Virus record (IMG/VR): IMGVR_UViG_3300036980_000702
Coordinates: 1-63,293 of that record
Reading direction: 5' to 3' (one strand)
Source: a virus
Taxonomy: Duplodnaviria > Caudoviricetes
Length of the DNA: 63,293 nt
Shown here: positions 24,840-62,455 of the stretch, piece by piece
Layout: each line of letters opens with the position of its first letter
How positions within the stretch are numbered: the first letter of the stretch is position 1
Translations under genes and position numbers: made by a program
The notes under the pieces: generated by a model
The model's database searches: none
Seen by the model: only the letters and a program-made list of their open reading frames with translations
What the model was told of the DNA's origin: nothing

Positions 24840-24862
24840 AAAAGGGGCGGTTTGTCCGCCCC
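24840..24862 (-). terminator. Terminator after the major capsid gene
   Basis: GGGGCGG-tttgt-CCGCCCC with a U-tract on the minus strand. Confidence 0.75.
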
Positions 24863-37656: not shown

Positions 37657-37729
37657 AAATCATCACCTCGCCATTAATTATACTCCTTTCGCCCCTACAA
37701 ATCAACAAAAAATAATTTGAAAAAGGTAG

Positions 37730-37758
37730 TTGACAATACCCCGGTAGTGTGGTATCAT
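37730..37758 (+). promoter_or_regulatory. Repeated cassette promoter, copy 1
   Basis: TTGACAATACCCCGGTAGTGTGGTATCAT. Confidence 0.85.
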
Positions 37759-37791
37759 AAATTATAAATTAAATTTGAGGGGGAGAAAACA

Positions 37792-38592
37792 ATGGCAAAC
37801 CAAATAGTAGCAAAGCAAATCCATCCCAACGAGAGTGCAATCTTACACAGTATCAGTTACGACGCCGGAACGGATTGCGGACCGGCAGCGGGAATGAAAT
37901 TGACAGGCGGACGCCCAACCATTAATAATGGTCAAAAGGTTGTATTGTTTGACCAAAAGATTAAAGGCCAACGAATGGGACTCAAGTACGAAACCCGACC
38001 GGAACTAGCCGCCCTAGTGGCCGAATGGGAGGCCATCGAAGCCGAAAAACAGGCCAAAAGGGAATTTGAGTGGAAAATTAAACGCTTGGCGGAAGAAACT
38101 ATCGATATCCCTTTGGTAGCGGCCATGAATACCGAGGCCGACAGATTACGGGGACTCATTCCCCGAGAAAATATCGAAGTGACTATTACTCAAACCGGAG
38201 ATCTTGACGGTGACCCGATCCTTAAATATGAGGTAGACGGATTTGAGATTAGTTGGAGTGATGTAACTGTACATGGTTGGGCAACTGCGATTCGCCCCGG
38301 AGCAATGGGAGCATTTAAATCGGTTTGCGTAGCCTCTATTAATCTTGCAAAGCTGGCCGAACTTATGACGGCCAGGGATGAGGCTGAAAAAGCGGAGATT
38401 GAAGCCACCCAGAAAGCGGAGGAGGAGAAAATCCGGAAGTTCGAAACTGCCAAAACTACTGGTGAAAAAGTCCTCCTCCGTAAATGGACGGCTGATTGTA
38501 ACGACCACCGCGAGGAATGCAACGTGGACATAATTACCGAATGGGCAATGCCAGATGGCACAACCAAGACCGAACGGCAGCACACCTGGTAA
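37792..38592 (+). CDS. Accessory hypothetical protein
   Basis: GAGGGGGAG RBS; C-terminal KFETAKTTGEKVLL...EECNVD...AMPDGT..TERQHTW domain. Confidence 0.8.
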   Translation: MANQIVAKQIHPNESAILHSISYDAGTDCGPAAGMKLTGGRPTINNGQKVVLFDQKIKGQRMGLKYETRPELAALVAEWEAIEAEKQAKREFEWKIKRLAEETIDIPLVAAMNTEADRLRGLIPRENIEVTITQTGDLDGDPILKYEVDGFEISWSDVTVHGWATAIRPGAMGAFKSVCVASINLAKLAELMTARDEAEKAEIEATQKAEEEKIRKFETAKTTGEKVLLRKWTADCNDHREECNVDIITEWAMPDGTTKTERQHTW

Positions 38593-38600
38593 ACACTCAA

Positions 38601-38627
38601 AGGCCCACCGGGAGCCTCAATTCCGGT
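38601..38627 (+). ncRNA. Repeated H-type pseudoknot motif, copy B
   Basis: AGGC-cca-CCGGGA-GCCT-caa-TTCCGG. Confidence 0.65.
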
Positions 38628-38653
38628 AAAAAATAAAAAAACGGAGGAAAAAA

Positions 38654-38938
38654 ATGAAAAAATACGATTGGCAAACCATTCAGATTTGGAACGGTTCGGA
38701 TGATAGAACAAAACTCGTATGTTGTGATTCGCCCCATCAATACACCCAAAAGGATATTATCGAGGCTTTGGCAGAATTTAGACAGACAAACGGCATGGGT
38801 GGTTGGTTTTTCGATTTTGACGGTAGAAAACACGAAGATCCCGCCGATGCCTCTACATGGGGACCTAAATCGCCCAATGAAATTAATTGGGCTGGTTTTC
38901 CTGTTTTTAAAGATGGCGAGTGGGTTTTGTCTGAATAG
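38654..38938 (+). CDS. Accessory hypothetical protein
   Basis: GGAGG RBS, 94 aa. Confidence 0.7.
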   Translation: MKKYDWQTIQIWNGSDDRTKLVCCDSPHQYTQKDIIEALAEFRQTNGMGGWFFDFDGRKHEDPADASTWGPKSPNEINWAGFPVFKDGEWVLSE

Positions 38939-39033
38939 TCGGCGTAGGAATCGTGCGGGGGCGCAAGCCCCACCCTAAGAAGGGGATTAGGAAAGGGAGA
39001 GTTGATAAATGGATTCCGGAGGAGGGAAAGTAA

Positions 39034-39198
39034 ATGAACAAGGCGGGAAAAGTTGATTTTGAACAATATTTTTACACTTTCTTTAGTTGGTCATCTTTGG
39101 ATTTTAATAGAAATTACAGGCATATAAAAACATTATACCTCAAAGATTACTTAAATTATTGTAAATCAATCGACCAAGAACCCGTTAGAGCAAGATAA
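39034..39198 (+). CDS. 54-aa accessory protein (absent from the ORF track)
   Basis: GGAGGAGGG RBS; MNKAGKVDFEQYF... Confidence 0.55.
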   Translation: MNKAGKVDFEQYFYTFFSWSSLDFNRNYRHIKTLYLKDYLNYCKSIDQEPVRAR

Positions 39199-39233
39199 CC
39201 GACATCTAACCGGAAAAAAGGAGGGAAAACAGG

Positions 39234-39359
39234 ATGGTACATATGGTAAAATTTCTTCGATATTGGGATAACAACGGACAACACGACCGAATTTTTTCCC
39301 AAGAGTTGTTGGAAAAACTTCAGAAAATCAAATGTAGGTATATTACTTGGTCAATGTAA
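39234..39359 (+). CDS. 41-aa accessory protein (absent from the ORF track)
   Basis: AAGGAGG RBS; MVHMVKFLRYWDNNG... Confidence 0.5.
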   Translation: MVHMVKFLRYWDNNGQHDRIFSQELLEKLQKIKCRYITWSM

Positions 39360-39413
39360 AGTTGCGGAACTGGGTTGGTAAAAATCGAATGAGGCACACT
39401 TGGTAGTATTCAA

Positions 39414-39439
39414 AGGCCCACCGGGAGCCTCAATCCCGG
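39414..39439 (+). ncRNA. Repeated H-type pseudoknot motif, copy C
   Basis: AGGC-cca-CCGGGA-GCCT-caa-TCCCGG. Confidence 0.65.
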
Positions 39440-39463
39440 CTTAAGGAAAGGATAGTGCTGGGA

Positions 39464-39619
39464 ATGACACTCCGAGAAGCAGAAAAATATTTAGCCGATG
39501 TAGCTATGAATGGGATTAAATCCGCTAGTAATACTGATAAAGAAGAAATTTTACTTCGAAAAGAACTTGGCTTAGATATGGAATCAGTAAGGGCATTCGC
39601 TAAACAACATATGTTTTAA
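39464..39619 (+). CDS. 51-aa accessory protein (absent from the ORF track)
   Basis: MTLREAEKYLADVAMNG...; purine-rich RBS. Confidence 0.5.
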   Translation: MTLREAEKYLADVAMNGIKSASNTDKEEILLRKELGLDMESVRAFAKQHMF

Positions 39620-39634
39620 AATAAAAAAGTTCTC

Positions 39635-39686
39635 TTCCTTTTCCTTTTTATCTCCCCGCAGGAGGGATAAATTAGCGAAGGAGGAT
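39635..39686 (+). repeat. 52-bp cassette-head repeat (hairpin plus RBS), copy 1
   Basis: 51 of 52 bases identical to 41406-41457. Confidence 0.9.
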
Positions 39687-39691
39687 TGACG

Positions 39692-39868
39692 ATGATAAGA
39701 ATACAATACCAGACTGACGGCGATTATCCGTGCCTTGTAACACAAGGTGCTGATAGCGTAGAGGACGCCGAGAGACTGATTAAAGTTCTTAAGGCGGCCG
39801 ATGAAGCGCACGGTCATCAAACTCGACGTTATATAATTATTAAAACCAAGGAGGATCACAATGCCTAA
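39692..39868 (+). CDS. Cassette cargo protein
   Basis: AAGGAGG RBS inside the repeat. Confidence 0.65.
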   Translation: MIRIQYQTDGDYPCLVTQGADSVEDAERLIKVLKAADEAHGHQTRRYIIIKTKEDHNA

Positions 39869-40091
39869 ATCAAACGACCGCCAACAACTACAGATCTGGT
39901 TTGTCGGCGGGGAACAAATGAAAATGAAAAGAAACCTAGATTTGGAATCCTTTAATACCGGGGTTCCGCGAGGGGAAATCATCCGGGAATCAATTTCTAT
40001 CCGCAACTACATCAAAAAAATATTGGACGAAGAATCATCTCTAGCAGAAAAAACCCTGCTAGACCTGGTAAAAAAACATTTTGAAAAATAG
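39861..40091 (+). CDS. RHH-like regulator, paralog 1 (MPK...KKHFEK)
   Basis: Paralog of 41951-42181; beta strand then helices (RQQLQIWF...GEIIRESI). Confidence 0.65.
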   Translation: MPKSNDRQQLQIWFVGGEQMKMKRNLDLESFNTGVPRGEIIRESISIRNYIKKILDEESSLAEKTLLDLVKKHFEK

Positions 40092-40092
40092 A

Positions 40093-40121
40093 TTAACAAT
40101 ACCGCGGTAGTGTGGTATCAT
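40093..40121 (+). promoter_or_regulatory. Repeated cassette promoter, copy 2
   Basis: TTAACAATACCGCGGTAGTGTGGTATCAT; contains the palindrome TACCGCGGTA. Confidence 0.8.
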
Positions 40122-40172
40122 TGAAAATGTCAGACGGGGACGCCGCCTGAACAAACGAGGAGGTAAGCAAAA

Positions 40173-40634
40173 ATGACAAACGAAATTTACAAAACCATCA
40201 AAATAAAGGGAATCAAGGTGGAATGCATCGATGAAACAGACGGATTCACGCTGGATATTAATGACCAAAAATACTACTATGACAACATTTCAATGGGAAT
40301 TGATAAGATCATTAACGGAGAAAAATATTTTCACACTATCGAGGAAATTATGTCAGTAACTAACTTCGATCTCCCGGAAACCTACCACCTTACCAGCGGC
40401 GGCTGGTCAGAGAAAATCACCGCCAAAAACATCCAAGAGGCTCGGGACATAGCTGATAATAGAATCGGCTACAACCAGGAAGACATGAAAGACATGAATA
40501 TTCTTGATGAAGACGGCAATCTGATTTGTTACCGGTATTGGAGCCAAACTTTGGGAGGTTTGGAGGATCAAGAGGACGCAATCGAATATGGTACTTTTGG
40601 ATACTACACCGATTGGACGGACGCAGGGGCCTAA
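40173..40634 (+). CDS. Acidic accessory protein
   Basis: GAGGAGG RBS, 153 aa. Confidence 0.75.
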   Translation: MTNEIYKTIKIKGIKVECIDETDGFTLDINDQKYYYDNISMGIDKIINGEKYFHTIEEIMSVTNFDLPETYHLTSGGWSEKITAKNIQEARDIADNRIGYNQEDMKDMNILDEDGNLICYRYWSQTLGGLEDQEDAIEYGTFGYYTDWTDAGA

Positions 40635-40642
40635 TCGCCCCA

Positions 40643-40693
40643 CCCTCTCCCGCAAAGCGGGACTGATGAGCCGGATGATTCCCGGCGAAAGGG
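40643..40693 (+). ncRNA. Hammerhead ribozyme (type III)
   Basis: CCC-UC / stem I UCCCGC-aaa-GCGGGA / CUGAUGA / stem II GCCGG-augauuc-CCGGC / GAAA-GGG; the catalytic core is complete. Confidence 0.9.
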
Positions 40694-40714
40694 AAAAATT
40701 AGGAGGAAAGAAAA

Positions 40715-41239
40715 ATGTTAACAGAATTAATTTCCCCGACACACAAAACCCCATACGTTTTAGATTATATCCTTTCAAAAGGTTTAATCCGGTCGGGATT
40801 GACCGGAACAATCCGGATCGAACTTAAACACACTTGTTTTTACGGCAGTAAAGATTTTTACGTATATGTGGAAAACCTATCTTGTTCGGAAAGCCACTGG
40901 ACTGATTCCGTAAATTTTAGGATTGATGGAATCATTCCGATGCATGCAACCGAAGCCGGAAAACTATCATATGGGTTTGGTTGCGGATGTGATACTAGTC
41001 ACGGAGACCAATTTCCATCCGAAGCCCCTCCGGATAATCCGGGTTGGGACGATTATAAAAAATATGATGGCGAAGGATCTGTTGTAAAATGCTGGATAGA
41101 TTCCGCCCACATAGAGATAGACATTAGCCAAATCCCAAGTGGCGATCCCGCATTAGGAATAATTACAGTATTAATCGAGACTTTGTTGGCCAGGCAATGC
41201 TTCTCAGAGGAGGTAAAGAAAGATGGGAAAATGTCATGA
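40715..41239 (+). CDS. Accessory hypothetical protein
   Basis: AGGAGG RBS just downstream of the hammerhead. Confidence 0.7.
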   Translation: MLTELISPTHKTPYVLDYILSKGLIRSGLTGTIRIELKHTCFYGSKDFYVYVENLSCSESHWTDSVNFRIDGIIPMHATEAGKLSYGFGCGCDTSHGDQFPSEAPPDNPGWDDYKKYDGEGSVVKCWIDSAHIEIDISQIPSGDPALGIITVLIETLLARQCFSEEVKKDGKMS

Positions 41240-41396
41240 ATGTCTCAAAAAAGAATTAGATGAGTTGGAAACATTTAAAGAACATGAGTGCATTAATTGT
41301 GGTGAAGTTTATTATGGAAATGATTCTAATTTTTGTGATTCTTTTTGTAAAGAAGAATATAAAATTATGGAGGAAACGGCGAGAGAGTGTGTTTAA
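41223..41396 (+). CDS. 57-aa Cys-rich protein (absent from the ORF track)
   Basis: GAGGAGG RBS; MGKCHEC...CINCG...FCDSFC. Confidence 0.65.
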   Translation: MGKCHECLKKELDELETFKEHECINCGEVYYGNDSNFCDSFCKEEYKIMEETARECV

Positions 41397-41405
41397 AAAC
41401 ATTTT

Positions 41406-41457
41406 TTCCTTTTCCTTTTTATCTCCCCGCAGGAGGGATAAATTAGCAAAGGAGGAT
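41406..41457 (+). repeat. 52-bp cassette-head repeat, copy 2
   Basis: 51 of 52 bases identical to 39635-39686. Confidence 0.9.
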
Positions 41458-41461
41458 CGTC

Positions 41462-41938
41462 ATGAAAACGGGATATGTAAACCCCAAACTGCTTGCAAAA
41501 AGAGACCAATTAATTTTACAAGTAGAAACACTCAATCGGAAATTACATGGCGGAGCCACTGCGGAAGTGGCCAAATATTTCCATTTAGGGATGGTGGGTG
41601 GATCTGGAAAACCAGTACAGAAATTAAACCGGGTCAGGTCTCAGGAGATTGATCGCCGGATTGATGGTGCCGTCTTGGCTGTCAATCTCCAAAAAGAACT
41701 TAATTATGTCGAATTTCAAATCCGATATCAGGAAACTGCCCCACTGAGGGCCGCAATAAAAGATGCGGCAGTTGAAAAATTGGGGAGTCTATTTGATACT
41801 ATCGAAGTTGGAGATCAAATTGATATTGGCGGGAATTGTCCATTTACCGTGATTAAGAAAAATAGAAAAACAGTTGTTACGGAATCTGGAAGCAAATGGA
41901 CTGCGGCGGAAATTTTTAAGGTAATTAAAAAATCTTAA
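41462..41938 (+). CDS. Cassette cargo protein with an SH3-like C-terminus
   Basis: IEVGDQIDIGG...VIKKNRKTVVTESG. Confidence 0.7.
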   Translation: MKTGYVNPKLLAKRDQLILQVETLNRKLHGGATAEVAKYFHLGMVGGSGKPVQKLNRVRSQEIDRRIDGAVLAVNLQKELNYVEFQIRYQETAPLRAAIKDAAVEKLGSLFDTIEVGDQIDIGGNCPFTVIKKNRKTVVTESGSKWTAAEIFKVIKKS

Positions 41939-41950
41939 AGGAGGATCGCA

Positions 41951-42181
41951 ATGCCTAAAAAAATAGTAGACCCCAACCGCCAGCAATACAATATTTGGTT
42001 TGTGGGGGAAGATCAAATCAAACAAAAACGGGCGTTAGAGCTTGAAACATTCCAAACCGGGATCCCCATGGCTGAAAATATCCGAGAGGCAATTGCAATT
42101 CGGGCTTATCTCAAAGATTTTTTTGGGGACGAAACCGTAATTCCCCTGCTAGATCTAGTAAAAAAACATTTTGAAAAATAG
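41951..42181 (+). CDS. RHH-like regulator, paralog 2 (MPK...KKHFEK)
   Basis: Paralog of 39861-40091. Confidence 0.65.
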   Translation: MPKKIVDPNRQQYNIWFVGEDQIKQKRALELETFQTGIPMAENIREAIAIRAYLKDFFGDETVIPLLDLVKKHFEK

Positions 42182-42182
42182 A

Positions 42183-42211
42183 TTGACAATACCCCGGTAG
42201 TGTGGTATTAT
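42183..42211 (+). promoter_or_regulatory. Repeated cassette promoter, copy 3
   Basis: TTGACAATACCCCGGTAGTGTGGTATTAT. Confidence 0.85.
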
Positions 42212-42238
42212 AAGATATAAGATAAAAATGTAAACATA

Positions 42239-42262
42239 AGGCCCACCGGGAGCCTATCCCGG
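42239..42262 (+). ncRNA. Repeated H-type pseudoknot motif, copy D
   Basis: AGGC-cca-CCGGGA-GCCT-a-TCCCGG. Confidence 0.65.
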
Positions 42263-42283
42263 AATATGGAGGAGGTAAGGTAG

Positions 42284-42550
42284 ATGAAAAAAATATTTAT
42301 TAGCTCTTTTAGCGGTAAGTTTGATAAAGTAGTCACCTTGTGCTTAACAGCAGGAGGAAAAAGGCTTGGTGAAATAAACAAGTACCACAATGATCAAGGG
42401 GAGATTTGGGAAGTTAAAAGTTTACCGTTTTTCCCTCGCCGTACCCCCGTAAAATGGATGGAACATTTAAATTGTCATGTTGGCGGACAGCCGATTTGGC
42501 ACCCATTTAACTCCGCGATTTGCGATGGACGCCAAACATACTGTATTTAA
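42284..42550 (+). CDS. Accessory hypothetical protein
   Basis: GGAGGAGG RBS, 88 aa. Confidence 0.7.
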   Translation: MKKIFISSFSGKFDKVVTLCLTAGGKRLGEINKYHNDQGEIWEVKSLPFFPRRTPVKWMEHLNCHVGGQPIWHPFNSAICDGRQTYCI

Positions 42551-42570
42551 CCAGGGGCCTAACCGCCCCA

Positions 42571-42627
42571 CCTCTAACGTACCGATGCCGGGAACCAAAG
42601 CCCCGGAGGAAGAAGACGGATGGGAGG
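42571..42627 (+). ncRNA. Twister-ribozyme-like element (variant or degenerate)
   Basis: P1 CCUC/GAGG, UAA, P2 CGU/ACG, P4 CCGGG/CCCGG with loop AACCAAAGC, GA-UGG pairing with CCA; two core deviations. Confidence 0.45.
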
Positions 42628-42750
42628 AAAATAAGGAAAGGAAAAATACTATGCGGAAAAAACTTGTCTTTTATGCCGTTAAATTAATCAGAGGCTTTGG
42701 CCTCCGTCCTCCGTAGACGCCGGAATTAAAAATATTATAATTAGTAAAAC

Positions 42751-42780
42751 AAAAGCCCGGTTAATCCGGGCTGATTTTAT
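42751..42780. terminator. Bidirectional terminator closing the accessory region
   Basis: AAAAGCCCGG-ttaat-CCGGGCT between convergent transcription units. Confidence 0.75.
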
Positions 42781-42823
42781 TTAATTGACCTATTCCTCAA
42801 TTTCTTCTACTTCCACTTCTATT

Positions 42824-43234
42824 TTATATTATTATCATTTTATATTCCGGATATCGTTTTTCAAACAACTTTCGCTTTTGTTTTGCAATTTGACTCCAAA
42901 ATCCTTTTGCTTCATGAATTTCAATTAAAACATCTTCGCAAGGTGGAAGTATATCAAAATTATATTTTATTATCACGAAATCTGCTCGATAATAAATTGG
43001 TTTTATCCATTCTTCTCCTTTCCAATATCCCTCATTAATTAAAAAGTTAACTTGTGGGAAAAAATCAATTATCTCTCCTGCCAGCTTAAGCAGTTTAAGC
43101 TGGCAATAATAATCCGCCTCTTTTTTTGAATCCCAAATCCTCCCATCAACTTCGGTTTTTTGACTATGATATTTTGATCCTTTAAATTGAGTTTTATTTC
43201 GGTATTCCGCCGCCGACATTCGCTCCTGTTTCAT
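42824..43234 (-). CDS. DUF1064 family endonuclease
   Basis: SKYHSQKTEVDGRIWDSKKEA...YRADF...EAKG. Confidence 0.85.
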   Translation of the reverse strand: MKQERMSAAEYRNKTQFKGSKYHSQKTEVDGRIWDSKKEADYYCQLKLLKLAGEIIDFFPQVNFLINEGYWKGEEWIKPIYYRADFVIIKYNFDILPPCEDVLIEIHEAKGFWSQIAKQKRKLFEKRYPEYKMIII

Positions 43235-62240: not shown

Positions 62241-62267
62241 AAATTTCTAAAAAATATAAAGATATAT

Positions 62268-62455
62268 AGGAAACCCCTCTAAAGGAGGGGTTTCCTTATG
62301 TGCTGGGTCGGTGCGCATCCGATCCAGTTTCGACTCCGGACTCGTCCGGGTGTCGCTCCGCCCAAAATGGCATGTAGCCAGGGGGCGTTCCTGTCCACGC
62401 AACTTGCAACCAAACAATAATTGTTCAGCCCAACTGCTGGCGGACACTGCAATGT
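62268..62455 (-). ncRNA. Putative stand-alone structured ncRNA (~185 nt)
   Basis: Promoter TTGACA-17-TAAAAT (62490-62462), GC-rich multi-stem body, terminator AGGAAACCCCTC...GAGGGGTTTCCT. Confidence 0.65.

What the first reader, a model, noticed from the sequence alone, without database searches (positions are those of the whole stretch)
38958..42627. One ribozyme slot filled by different elements
Seen: three gene ends carry a GGGGC-loop-GCCCC hairpin followed by ACC(C)T (38958, 40626, 42554; the last two share AGGGGCCTAAyCGCCCCACC). At 40643 a hammerhead follows and at 42571 a twister-like fold. At 38973 only the hammerhead-like ends CCCT...GAAAGGGA remain, without a core. Inference: an interchangeable self-cleavage module. 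Cleavage would leave the upstream mRNA ending a few nt after a protective hairpin, and the downstream mRNA with a 5'-OH that resists monophosphate-dependent decay.
Basis: partly seen in the sequence, partly recalled or inferred. Interest (0 to 1): 0.8.

Follow-up and report, generated by a model that had tools for sequence, protein, structure and literature searches.

The report
Hairpin-led ribozymes and a new junction RNA
Between small accessory genes of an uncultured phage sit a hammerhead ribozyme and a weakened twister ribozyme, each led by the same small hairpin, and a third element that is an uncatalogued four-armed RNA found in the same gene-junction slot of other phages.

Summary
The three hairpins are real: 3 matches against 0.01 expected.

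**Site 2** is an intact type III hammerhead, though below Rfam's cut-off (25.7 bits against 48.5).

**Site 3** is a true relative of phage type-P1 twisters. A model built without it ranks it first in the genome (29.1 bits). It carries A where 7 of 7 comparison twisters have the pseudoknot G, so it may cut poorly.

Both predicted cuts fall exactly 6 nt after the hairpin.

**Site 1** is not a gutted hammerhead. It belongs to an uncatalogued four-way-junction RNA family:
- 24 strong copies in 17 DNA sources
- 12 of 17 pairs with compensatory changes
- always placed between a stop codon and the next ribosome-binding site, sometimes in arrays, and beside twister, twister-sister or hammerhead ribozymes

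**What is already in print:** that ribozyme classes swap in phage gene junctions, and the upstream hairpin "P0" of twisters and hatchets.

**What I did not find in print:**
- the same kind of hairpin precedes phage type III hammerheads (11 of 12 and 31 of 48, against about 0.3 background)
- the site 1 RNA family

No cleavage was tested and no RNA data exist. This scan has noted ribozyme-punctuated phage operons, with unknown modules in the same slot, on other DNA before.

The parts
38936..38989 (+). Site 1: four-way-junction RNA of an uncatalogued family. P1 is 38936-40 with 38985-89. Pa (the invariant arm) is 38943-46 with 38954-57. P2 is 38958-62 with 38967-71. Pb is 38973-76 with 38981-84.
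   Evidence: MFE fold. RNAalifold on 9 sequences gives the same four helices. Covariation. Model R1 scores it 82.3 bits; it was a training row.
38958..38971 (+). It is arm P2 of the site 1 junction, not a ribozyme leader.
   Evidence: The arm varies with compensatory changes in relatives.
40626..40641 (+). P0-like leader hairpin of the hammerhead: 5 G/C pairs and a 6-nt loop. The loop holds the TAA stop (40632-34) of ORF 40173..40634.
   Evidence: -9.0 kcal/mol.
40643..40693 (+). Type III hammerhead. Stem III is CCCU/AGGG, C17 is at 40647, stem I is 40648-62, CUGAUGA is 40663-69, stem II is 40670-86, GAAA is 40687-90. The predicted cut is between 40647 and 40648.
   Evidence: Rfam RF00008 gives 25.7 bits, E 0.027, full model length. 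The MFE equals the hammerhead fold. It is 93% identical over 55 nt to a copy in the phage record G001.
42554..42569 (+). P0 hairpin of the twister, near-identical to the one at 40626. Its loop TAA (42560-62) is in frame, 4 codons after the real stop of ORF 42284..42550.
42571..42627 (+). Type-P1 twister relative. P1 is 42571-74 with 42624-27. The predicted cut is U42575|A42576. P2 is 42578-80 with 42616-18. P4 is 42588-92 with 42602-06. Loop L4 is 42593-601. The predicted general-base G is 42619. A42581 stands where the pseudoknot-1 G is expected.
   Evidence: MFE fold. Model R2, built from 4 other phage twisters, gives 29.1 bits, E about 9e-6, and ranks it first in the whole window with filters off. 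Deviation.
37730..37758 (+). Promoter-like site heading the plus-strand accessory array. Similar sites lie at 40093-40121 and 42183-42211.
   Evidence: Consensus scan only: 11, 10 and 11 of 12 hexamer matches, each with an extended -10 TG.
42754..42772 (+). Terminator-like hairpin that ends the array.
   Evidence: Consensus scan only.

Best explanation
The plus-strand accessory array (about 37.7-42.8 kb) of this complete 63-kb phage is probably transcribed as polycistronic RNA. Its gene junctions carry RNA 'punctuation' modules.

Two modules are self-cleaving ribozymes of different classes: a type III hammerhead and a type-P1 twister. Each is led by a near-identical 5-bp G/C hairpin of the P0 kind. 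In both, the cut falls at the 5' edge of the ribozyme, 6 nt after the hairpin. The upstream gene's RNA would therefore end in hairpin + 6 nt + 2',3'-cyclic phosphate. The downstream RNA would begin with a 5'-OH on the folded ribozyme body.

I infer that the hairpin gives the upstream product the structured 3' end that this cutting geometry would otherwise deny it. Permuted forms (type-P5 twisters; by topology also type I and II hammerheads) end the upstream product in one of their own hairpins.

The twister copy has a pseudoknot-1 defect (A-C in place of G-C) and may be slow or dead.

The third site is a different module. It is a compact four-way-junction RNA with one invariant arm (GGCGU-NNN-AAUCGUGCG). 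In other phages it fills the same stop-codon-to-RBS slot, also in arrays and next to ribozymes. It most likely marks a processing or insulation point as well, by self-cleavage or by recruiting a nuclease or protein.

Shown: the sequences, folds, homology, covariation and placement. Inferred: transcription as one RNA, any cleavage, any effect on stability.
For: - **Record.** The window is a complete virus record with terminal repeats.
- **Hairpins.** 3 matches against 0.01 expected. They are not terminators.
- **Hammerhead.** Full core and fold. A 93%-identical copy in G001 is preceded by a hairpin of different sequence (GGCGG...CCGCC).
- **Twister.** It is the top hit of an independent model (29.1 bits, next best 13.3). 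It has UAA at the cut, and P1, P2, P4, a CCA/UGG pseudoknot 2 and the general-base G by hand alignment.
- **Same offset.** Both cuts are 6 nt after the hairpin.
- **P0 in print.** Twister. Hatchet, whose cut is at the very 5' end: (abstract).
- **Upstream hairpin counts** (closed hairpin of -8 kcal/mol or better, ending 0-6 nt before stem III):
  - 11 of 12 type III hammerheads, background 0.32, binomial tail 3e-5
  - an independent bait with another stem III: 31 of 48, background 0.287, tail 3e-7
  - type-P1-like twisters: 6 of 8, background 0.23
- **G001.** It carries Twister-P5 (50.9 bits), twister-sister (43.3), a site 1 relative, the hammerhead and a second Twister-P5 (34.0, below cut-off) on one strand within 2.4 kb.
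- **Site 1 family.**
  - 24 copies with E at or below 2e-7 in 17 sources
  - 12 of 17 pairs with compensatory change; 96.3% of cells paired against 80% shuffled and at most 58% slid
  - in 24 of 24 copies the upstream ORF ends 34 nt before to 9 nt after GGCG; in 23 of 24 an SD-led start follows 3-36 nt after the motif
  - flanking genes differ between copies
  - Twister-P5 lies 180 and about 290 nt upstream in L275 and L274
Against: - No cleavage, transcript or RNA-end data exist for this phage.
- **Rfam on the twister.** No twister hit at site 3, even at E up to 10 on 116 bases. RF03160 finds nothing in the genome.
- **Pseudoknot defect.**
  - The position of A42581 is G in 7 of 7 comparison twisters.
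  - Every substitution of the equivalent G13 in the rice twister left relative activity below 0.2 (PMC5113685, whole text).
  - Non-wobble mismatches in this 2-bp pseudoknot strongly lower cleavage (PMC11662667 section 32).
- **P0 in vitro.** P0 lowered cleavage from 0.85 to 0.40 mean fraction cleaved. This fits an inhibitory or regulatory role as well as a protective one.
- **The hairpin is not universal.** 17 of 48 and 1 of 12 hammerheads lack it. It is also no more frequent with short stems III (24 of 38) than with long ones (7 of 10).
- **Weak statistics.** Background is high (about 0.3) in these GC-rich loci. The hammerhead samples were chosen with baits taken from one stem III each, and several come from the same contig.
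- **Weak hammerhead features.** Stem III has only 4 pairs, and the Rfam score is below the gathering cut-off.
Confidence: 0.6

Rival explanations
1. The leader hairpin serves the ribozyme, not the product. It would stack on the short stem III or P1, shield the fold from upstream coding RNA, or form an alternative pairing that delays or gates cleavage.
For: - P0 abuts the ribozyme (gap 0-6 nt) in most cases.
- Stem III here has only 4 pairs.
- In several phage twisters the hairpin sits 0-1 nt from the cut and no P1 is evident (L261, L168).
- P0 lowered cleavage in vitro, and the authors suggest inhibitory interactions (PMC11662667 section 33).
- The stop codon of the upstream ORF lies in the hairpin loop, so terminating ribosomes would melt it.
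Against: - The same kind of hairpin accompanies three unrelated folds (hammerhead III, twister P1, hatchet) whose only shared trait is a cut at the 5' edge.
- Hairpin frequency does not rise with shorter stem III.
- Neither role was tested here, and the two are not exclusive.
Confidence: 0.3
2. Only the hammerhead is active. The twister at 42571-42627 is a decaying relic, and the shared leader merely records a past duplication or recombination between modules.
For: - A-C mismatch in the 2-bp pseudoknot 1; 7 of 7 comparison twisters have G.
- Mutational data.
- No Rfam hit.
- It is followed only by a 21-codon ORF and the array's terminator.
- The 20-nt leader is more alike between sites 2 and 3 than a hairpin needs to be.
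Against: - All other defining positions are kept.
- The third pair of pseudoknot 2 is changed on both sides (C-G to A-U), which suggests selection after divergence.
- 71% of single mutants of the rice twister keep detectable activity.
- About 94% of natural candidates tested were active despite imperfections (abstract of PMC11662667).
Confidence: 0.45
3. The site 1 four-way junction is a new class of self-cleaving ribozyme.
For: - It has the gene-junction placement, the array habit and the neighbourhood of known ribozymes. That neighbourhood is the association that led to twister-sister, pistol and hatchet.
- It is compact (about 55-130 nt), with about 14 invariant nucleotides in one arm and covarying stems.
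- No Rfam 15 family matched it in the five evalue-mode scans that covered copies.
Against: - The conserved letters lie in a hairpin arm, not in junction strands or internal loops as in known small ribozymes.
- A single invariant arm fits a protein-binding site as well.
- Several motifs with the same associations did not cleave when tested (PMC5737381 passages).
- No assay was run.
Confidence: 0.2
4. The site 1 junction is a recognition site for a host or phage protein. It could be a cloverleaf-shaped processing signal for a tRNA-type or double-strand nuclease, or a regulatory protein site that couples termination of the upstream ORF to the next gene.
For: - Cloverleaf order of helices, with a 2-nt, 0-nt, 1-nt, 0-nt linker pattern.
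- The invariant arm includes its U-G pair.
- The upstream stop codon often lies in P1 or in the invariant arm (3 of 24 in the arm itself).
- A 3' half-copy alone precedes an RBS in L274.
- Earlier notes of this scan describe mini-tRNA look-alikes in such slots; this is a lead only.
Against: - ARAGORN finds no tRNA in 38000-43000.
- The arms lack T-loop or D-loop features by eye.
- No co-occurring protein was identified, and the flanking genes differ.
Confidence: 0.4

Closest known systems
Clusters of self-cleaving ribozymes that flank single genes in phages and prophages (Perreault et al. 2011, PMC3088659; Weinberg et al. 2019 review, PMC6765202)
   Same: Several ribozymes of different classes on one strand between small, non-conserved genes. 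The papers propose processing of long phage transcripts into gene-length RNAs, and state that the class of ribozyme seems not to matter (passages seen).
   Different: In the passages I saw, those papers do not describe a leader hairpin before type III hammerheads. A 'find' in PMC3088659 for 'upstream hairpin', 'additional stem' and 'terminator' gave 0 occurrences. Nor do they describe a non-ribozyme four-way junction in the same slot.
Type III hammerhead ribozyme (Rfam RF00008)
   Same: Full catalytic core, three stems, CUC cleavage triplet, open stem III.
   Different: It scores 25.7 bits against a gathering cut-off of 48.5. Stem III has 4 pairs. It is preceded by a separate closed hairpin 1 nt upstream.
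Type-P1 twister ribozyme with optional P0 stem (Rfam RF03160; Roth et al. 2014, as described in PMC6154101 and PMC11662667)
   Same: Order P0-P1-U|AA-P2-P4/L4-P2'-G-A-pseudoknot-P1'. No P3 or P5, like the rice Osa-1-4 twister. P0 lies immediately upstream.
   Different: A in place of the pseudoknot-1 G, one extra base at the start of L4, P2 of 3 pairs, no Rfam hit.
RAGATH motifs: RNAs associated with genes associated with twister and hammerhead (name recalled; Weinberg et al. 2015, not held here). Rfam holds RAGATH-6 and RAGATH-18 (seen in PMC13085918).
   Same: The site 1 family has this kind of association and is a conserved structured RNA of unknown function.
   Different: No Rfam 15 family matched any copy at the thresholds used.

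Membership tests
Hammerhead ribozyme, type III | Core C3-U-G-A-N-G-A9, G12-A-A14, A15.1-U16.1 pair and H17 | tested here: met
   CUGAUGA 40663-69, GAAA 40687-90, U40646-A40690, C40647. Criteria as listed in PMC3088659.
Hammerhead ribozyme, type III | Three stems around the core with pairs adjacent to it; stems I and II closed, stem III open | tested here: met
   The MFE shows stem I 6 bp, stem II 5 bp, stem III 4 bp. My descriptor scan finds it.
Hammerhead ribozyme, type III | Rfam RF00008 gathering score | tested here: not met
   25.7 bits against 48.5, E 0.027 on 4.5 kb. Not listed in the whole-window scan.
Hammerhead ribozyme, type III | Self-cleavage after H17 | not testable with these tools
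   No assay and no RNA data.
Twister ribozyme, type P1 | N|A cut site followed by a second A; general-base G after the 3' strand of P2 | tested here: met
   U42575|A42576 A42577; G42619 A42620. The importance of these positions is described in PMC11662667 section 32.
Twister ribozyme, type P1 | Stems P1, P2, P4 | tested here: met
   4-5, 3 and 5 pairs in the MFE.
Twister ribozyme, type P1 | Pseudoknot 1 (T2): two pairs between GC after P2 and GC in L4 | tested here: not met
   A42581 faces C42601, so one of the two pairs is left. 7 of 7 comparison twisters have G. Model R2 aligns a deletion there.
Twister ribozyme, type P1 | Pseudoknot 2 (T1) between L4 and the 3' strand of L1 | tested here: met
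   C42595-G42623, C42596-G42622, A42597-U42621, by hand. The third pair is changed on both sides relative to CCC/GGG in the four model sequences.
Twister ribozyme, type P1 | Match to a family covariance model | tested here: inconclusive
   Rfam RF03160 gives none at E up to 10. My model R2, built from 4 phage twisters without P3, gives 29.1 bits, E about 9e-6, rank 1 of the window.
   CCCU pairs with the nearer AGGG as arm Pb, which is conserved and covarying in relatives. The GAAAGGG at 38991 is not conserved and not rare.
Any Rfam 15 family, for site 1 | Covariance-model match | tested here: not met
   No hit on the motif in the window region at E up to 10, nor on copies in L150, L272 and L273-275.
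tRNA or tRNA-like, for site 1 | Cloverleaf with T and D loop features, detectable by ARAGORN | tested here: not met
   0 genes in 38000-43000. Only the helix order resembles a cloverleaf.
Intrinsic terminator, for the three hairpins | G+C-rich hairpin followed by a T run | tested here: not met
   Followed by ACC(C)T. Absent from the terminator-like list. Contrast the hairpin at 24844.
Lambdoid nut/boxB-type antitermination site, for arm Pb of site 1 | boxA plus a boxB hairpin with a GNRA-like pentaloop, bound by an N protein | not tested
   The resemblance of the Pb stem to boxB is recalled only. The Pb loop varies in sequence and length among family members, which speaks against a specific loop reader.

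The most novel reading that the evidence does not exclude
The site 1 element founds a new class of catalytic or nuclease-guiding 'punctuation' RNA: a four-way junction with an invariant GGCGU-NNN-AAUCGUGCG arm that phages use interchangeably with hammerhead, twister and twister-sister ribozymes. Separately, the P0 hairpin is a general device, shared by at least three ribozyme classes that cut at their 5' edge, which gives the upstream messenger a protected 3' end without stopping transcription.
Probability: 0.25. Interest if true: 0.85.

Novelty: new variant of a known kind. Interest (0 to 1): 0.6.

Why it matters
What self-cleaving ribozymes do in bacteria and phages is an open question; the 2019 review says so. 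Two things here make it more testable.

First, there is a simple structural rule. Ribozymes that cut at their 5' edge tend to carry a closed hairpin just upstream, and here two classes share the same hairpin at the same 6-nt offset. This predicts that the upstream RNA is the beneficiary. It can be tested by deleting the hairpin.

Second, a conserved non-ribozyme RNA sits in the ribozymes' slot. Either it is a new ribozyme class, or it shows that phages reach the same end through a protein-dependent route. Either answer would say what the slot is for.

Tried and rejected
- **Generic hairpin bait** (GGGGC-N-GCCCCACCYYT, viral contigs). I inspected 120 matches in 120 loci. Nearly all are longer terminator-type hairpins in which ACC pairs with an upstream GGT. 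A loose hammerhead regex hit 1 of 120 (L038), which by eye has no stems. Twisters were not screened there. The bait was uninformative.
- **Exact leader** GGGGCCTAAYCGCCCCACC. It gave 1 unrelated viral hit (L121, a longer hairpin before an RBS), 0 in metagenome contigs and 0 in genome contigs.
- **Synteny.**
  - The best TerL relative is 56% identical.
  - Rfam at gathering score found only a tRNA in 11 of these 18 TerL-relative loci (140 kb).
  - There was no DNA match of 38900-42800 in the phage collection.
  - The 153-aa protein upstream of the hammerhead has no relative.
  - The 10 array ORFs have no Pfam family and one weak PHROG.
- **TerL in other records.** TerL of the window was not found in G001-G004. 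These records are 34-84% complete, so this does not prove they are unrelated.
- **Twister P4/L4 bait**. Most of the 119 loci were plain GNRA-loop hairpins. Only those with the TCCCAAGC loop were used.
- **First twister alignment.** A3 was ungapped and mis-registered, so I discarded it for A4.
- **Site 1 bait in genome contigs:** 0 matches.
- **Chance hits left out of counts:** L279, and L285, L286, L292, L296-298 and L300, because by eye they show no fold. In one search, L140, L143/L147 and L145 did not pass the stem filter. L141 and the L142 copy at 653 also failed it, and I added them by eye.
- **Whole-window Rfam in evalue mode**: no ribozyme listed. The hammerhead itself was lost at that scale.
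- **Sequencing runs:** no RNA holder listed. The single DNA holder may be the source sample.
- **Earlier-findings look-ups by sequence** found nothing.
- **Papers not held:** Roth 2014 and Weinberg 2015. Supplements were not opened, so RAGATH lists and hammerhead alignments there may bear on both novelty claims.
- **Searches behind 'not found in print':**, plus the passages named above.

Full report
**What the window is.** It is a complete IMG/VR virus record of 63,293 bases with direct terminal repeats. Its large terminase is at most 56% identical to any other in the viral collection and about 43% identical to named phages. The finding lies in a plus-strand array of small ORFs (about 37.7-42.8 kb) between minus-strand operons. 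The array has three promoter-like sites (37730, 40093, 42183) and one terminator-like hairpin (42754). None of 10 array ORFs has a Pfam family, and one has a weak PHROG match.

**The observation.** GGGGC-N(3-9)-GCCCCACC occurs three times, at 38958, 40626 and 42554, all on the + strand, against 0.01 expected. The hairpins are not followed by T runs and are not among the terminator-like sites. The only other GGGGC...GCCCC hairpin in the genome (24844, minus strand, after the major head gene) is an ordinary terminator. At site 2 the stop codon of ORF 40173..40634 is the TAA in the hairpin loop. At site 3 the loop TAA is in frame, four codons after the real stop.

**Site 2, the hammerhead.**
- The region 40643-40693 has the complete hammerhead core and folds as a type III hammerhead in the minimum-energy structure: stem I 6 bp, stem II 5 bp, stem III 4 bp.
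- Rfam RF00008 matches over its full length, but at 25.7 bits against a cut-off of 48.5.
- The predicted cut is after C40647.
- A 93%-identical copy (55 nt) lies in another virus record, G001 (63,875 bases, 75% complete), in otherwise unalignable DNA. There it is preceded by a hairpin of different sequence, two bases before stem III.

**Site 3, the twister.**
- The minimum-energy fold gives P1, P2 and P4 in the order of a type-P1 twister.
- Rfam gives no twister hit, even at E up to 10 on 116 bases, and RF03160 finds nothing in the genome.
- I therefore built a model (R2) from four phage twisters of the same P3-less layout found in other contigs, leaving the window out. With filters off over the whole window and both strands, site 3 is the top hit: 29.1 bits, E about 9e-6 (rough), full model length. 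The next hit scores 13.3 bits.
- By hand alignment it keeps U|AA, the general-base G, P4 and the AAGC end of loop L4. Pseudoknot 2 has its third pair changed on both sides.
- It has A42581 where the pseudoknot-1 G stands in 7 of 7 comparison twisters, and one extra base at the start of L4.
- The literature bears on that A:
  - In the rice twister, every substitution of that G left relative activity under 0.2 (PMC5113685, whole text read).
  - Among natural twisters, non-wobble mismatches in this two-pair pseudoknot strongly lowered cleavage (PMC11662667, sections 32 and 38 read).
- So this is a genuine twister relative whose activity is doubtful.

**The shared geometry.** Reading together, the hammerhead cut is 6 nt after the last base of its hairpin (40641 to 40647), and the twister cut is also 6 nt after its hairpin (42569 to 42575).

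**The hairpin elsewhere.** As an exact sequence, the leader is found nowhere else that is relevant. As a structure, it is common.
- The hairpin immediately upstream of a twister is the published optional P0/L0 stem. It is present in about 10-21% of twisters, has no known role, and lowers cleavage in vitro (PMC6154101 passages; PMC11662667 section 33).
- Hatchet ribozymes cut at the very 5' end of their motif (abstract of PMC6561176). They also have a dispensable P0 hairpin (PMC4604424 passage).
- For hammerheads I found no such description in the passages and searches listed under Tried and rejected.
- I tested it in two samples. The criterion was a self-closed hairpin of -8 kcal/mol or better that ends 0-6 nt before stem III.
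  - Sample one had 12 distinct type III hammerheads. Seven trace to a bait with this hammerhead's stem III, and five came from a structure scan of loci fetched for other reasons. 11 of 12 met the criterion, against 0.32 of 300 matched random windows, binomial tail 3e-5. Of the five that did not come from the bait, 4 met it.
  - Sample two used a bait with a different stem III. Of 125 raw matches in 119 loci, 48 distinct ones passed the stem filters, and 31 of 48 met the criterion against 0.287 background, tail 3e-7.
- The hairpin is thus frequent, not universal, and not more frequent when stem III is short (24 of 38 against 7 of 10).
- Among type-P1-like phage twisters in my loci, 6 of 8 have it, against 0.23 background. 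One of the six (L168) is a weak case.

**Why a protective role is my preferred reading.**
- In type III hammerheads, type-P1 twisters and hatchets, the cut leaves the upstream RNA with only a few unpaired bases of the ribozyme.
- In the type-P5 twisters of G001, L274 and L275, the cut falls right after the closed P1 hairpin.
- By the known topology of type I and II hammerheads, the upstream product ends in stem III. This is my reasoning and was not tested.
- A hairpin added only where the fold itself supplies none fits a need of the product.
- This remains inference. The rival, that P0 helps or gates folding, is not excluded, and the in vitro inhibition by P0 fits it.

**Site 1.** The DNA search of G001 with 37700-42800 returned, besides the hammerhead, only one other match: 48 nt at 94% identity covering site 1.
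- Baits from the conserved flanks found further copies in viral and metagenome contigs. A bait from the 5' half alone found many more.
- RNAalifold on nine sequences predicts a four-way junction:
  - an outer stem P1
  - an arm Pa
  - an arm Pb, which is CCCU-loop-AGGG
- Single-sequence folds agree for the window and L276, and roughly for G001 and L273. The L283 fold departs.
- A covariance model (R1) finds 24 copies with E at or below 2e-7 in 17 sources. Nine of these are its training rows. There are up to four copies per contig at 0.7-1 kb spacing (L288 x4, L301 x3, L294 x2, L295 x2).
- On the 33-row model-fitted alignment, 12 of 17 pairs show compensatory changes (P1 5 of 5, P2 4 of 4, Pb 3 of 4). 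96.3% of cells are paired, against 80% after shuffling and at most 58% when partners are slid. That alignment leans towards the model.
- P1 lay outside every bait and already showed three compensatory pairs in the plain MAFFT alignment.
- Arm Pa and the two bases before it are invariant (GGCGU-NNN-AAUCGUGCG), also in the four copies that lack the exact bait. The loop of Pb varies.
- In 24 of 24 copies the longest upstream open frame ends between 34 nt before and 9 nt after the first G of GGCG. In 23 of 24 an SD-led start codon follows 3-36 nt after the motif.
- Flanking proteins differ between copies, so this is not a leader of one gene family.
- No Rfam 15 family matches it, and ARAGORN sees no tRNA.

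**Company the site 1 motif keeps.**
- In G001, one strand carries five elements within 2.4 kb, each between small ORFs:
  - Twister-P5 (50.9 bits, cut-off 37.6)
  - twister-sister (43.3 bits, cut-off 34)
  - the site 1 motif
  - the hammerhead
  - a second Twister-P5 (34.0 bits, below cut-off)
- In L275 and L274, a Twister-P5 (57.4 and 48.7 bits) lies 180 and about 290 nt upstream on the same strand. In L273 none was found.
- L294 has a weak twister-like hit upstream of its two copies (22.8 bits).
- Known self-cleaving ribozymes thus lie within about 1.7 kb on the same strand in 4 of the first 5 records examined: the window, G001, L274 and L275, but not L273.
- The window's terminase has no match in G001-G004. 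These are incomplete records, so the RNA modules seem to be shared between phages that are not close kin, though I cannot prove that.

**What is known and what is not.** Arrays of hammerheads flanking single, non-conserved genes in prophages, with the suggestion that they cut long transcripts into gene-length RNAs, date from 2011 (PMC3088659 passages). I did not find in print (a) the P0-type hairpin as a frequent companion of phage type III hammerheads, with one explanation for P0 across three classes, or (b) the site 1 family.

**Earlier notes of this scan.** They describe similar ribozyme-punctuated phage operons with uncatalogued modules or mini-tRNA look-alikes in the same slot on other DNA. 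None matched this motif by sequence. I treat them as leads only.

**Verdict.** The kind of system is known. The shared leader at a fixed 6-nt offset, its generality before type III hammerheads, and the four-way-junction family are the new parts. All functional statements await cleavage and stability assays.

Noticed in passing
window 39630-39685 and 41403-41458: A near-identical intergenic block of about 55 nt (T-rich run, then CCCCGCAGGAGGG, then an RBS) precedes two different ORFs in the same array. Its function is unknown.
   Followed up: no
window 39414-39440 and 42239-42262: A repeated GGCCCACCGGGAGCC...CCCGG element lies just upstream of RBSs. I did not examine it.
   Followed up: no
window 39861-40091 and 41951-42181: Two paralogous 76-aa ORFs each end immediately before a near-identical promoter-like site (40093, 42183). 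They look like cassette boundaries with a possible regulator.
   Followed up: no
L274 11202-11278: A half-copy of the site 1 motif (arm Pb plus the 3' strand of P1, 17.3 bits) stands alone just before an RBS. It overlaps the end of the upstream ORF.
   Followed up: partly
L290 10492-10558, L291 8982-9046, L303 5258-5357: These are variants that keep the invariant arm of the site 1 family but seem to lack arm Pb. They score 17-22 bits with R1 and may be three-way-junction forms. This was judged by eye only.
   Followed up: partly
L142 (minus strand, about 650-1640 of the reverse complement): Three type III hammerheads lie within 1 kb, each directly preceded by a long G+C-rich hairpin (-19 to -36 kcal/mol).
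   Followed up: partly
L261, L168/L214/L231: In these phage twisters a closed hairpin abuts the cut site (gap 0) and no P1 pairing with the 3' end is evident. The hairpin may stand in for P1.
   Followed up: partly
window 62250-62342 (minus strand): A weak sub-threshold Rfam match (BSnc120, 25 bits) lies in the region that another first-reader note (e1-6276570) flags as an unassigned structured RNA near the tRNAs.
   Followed up: no
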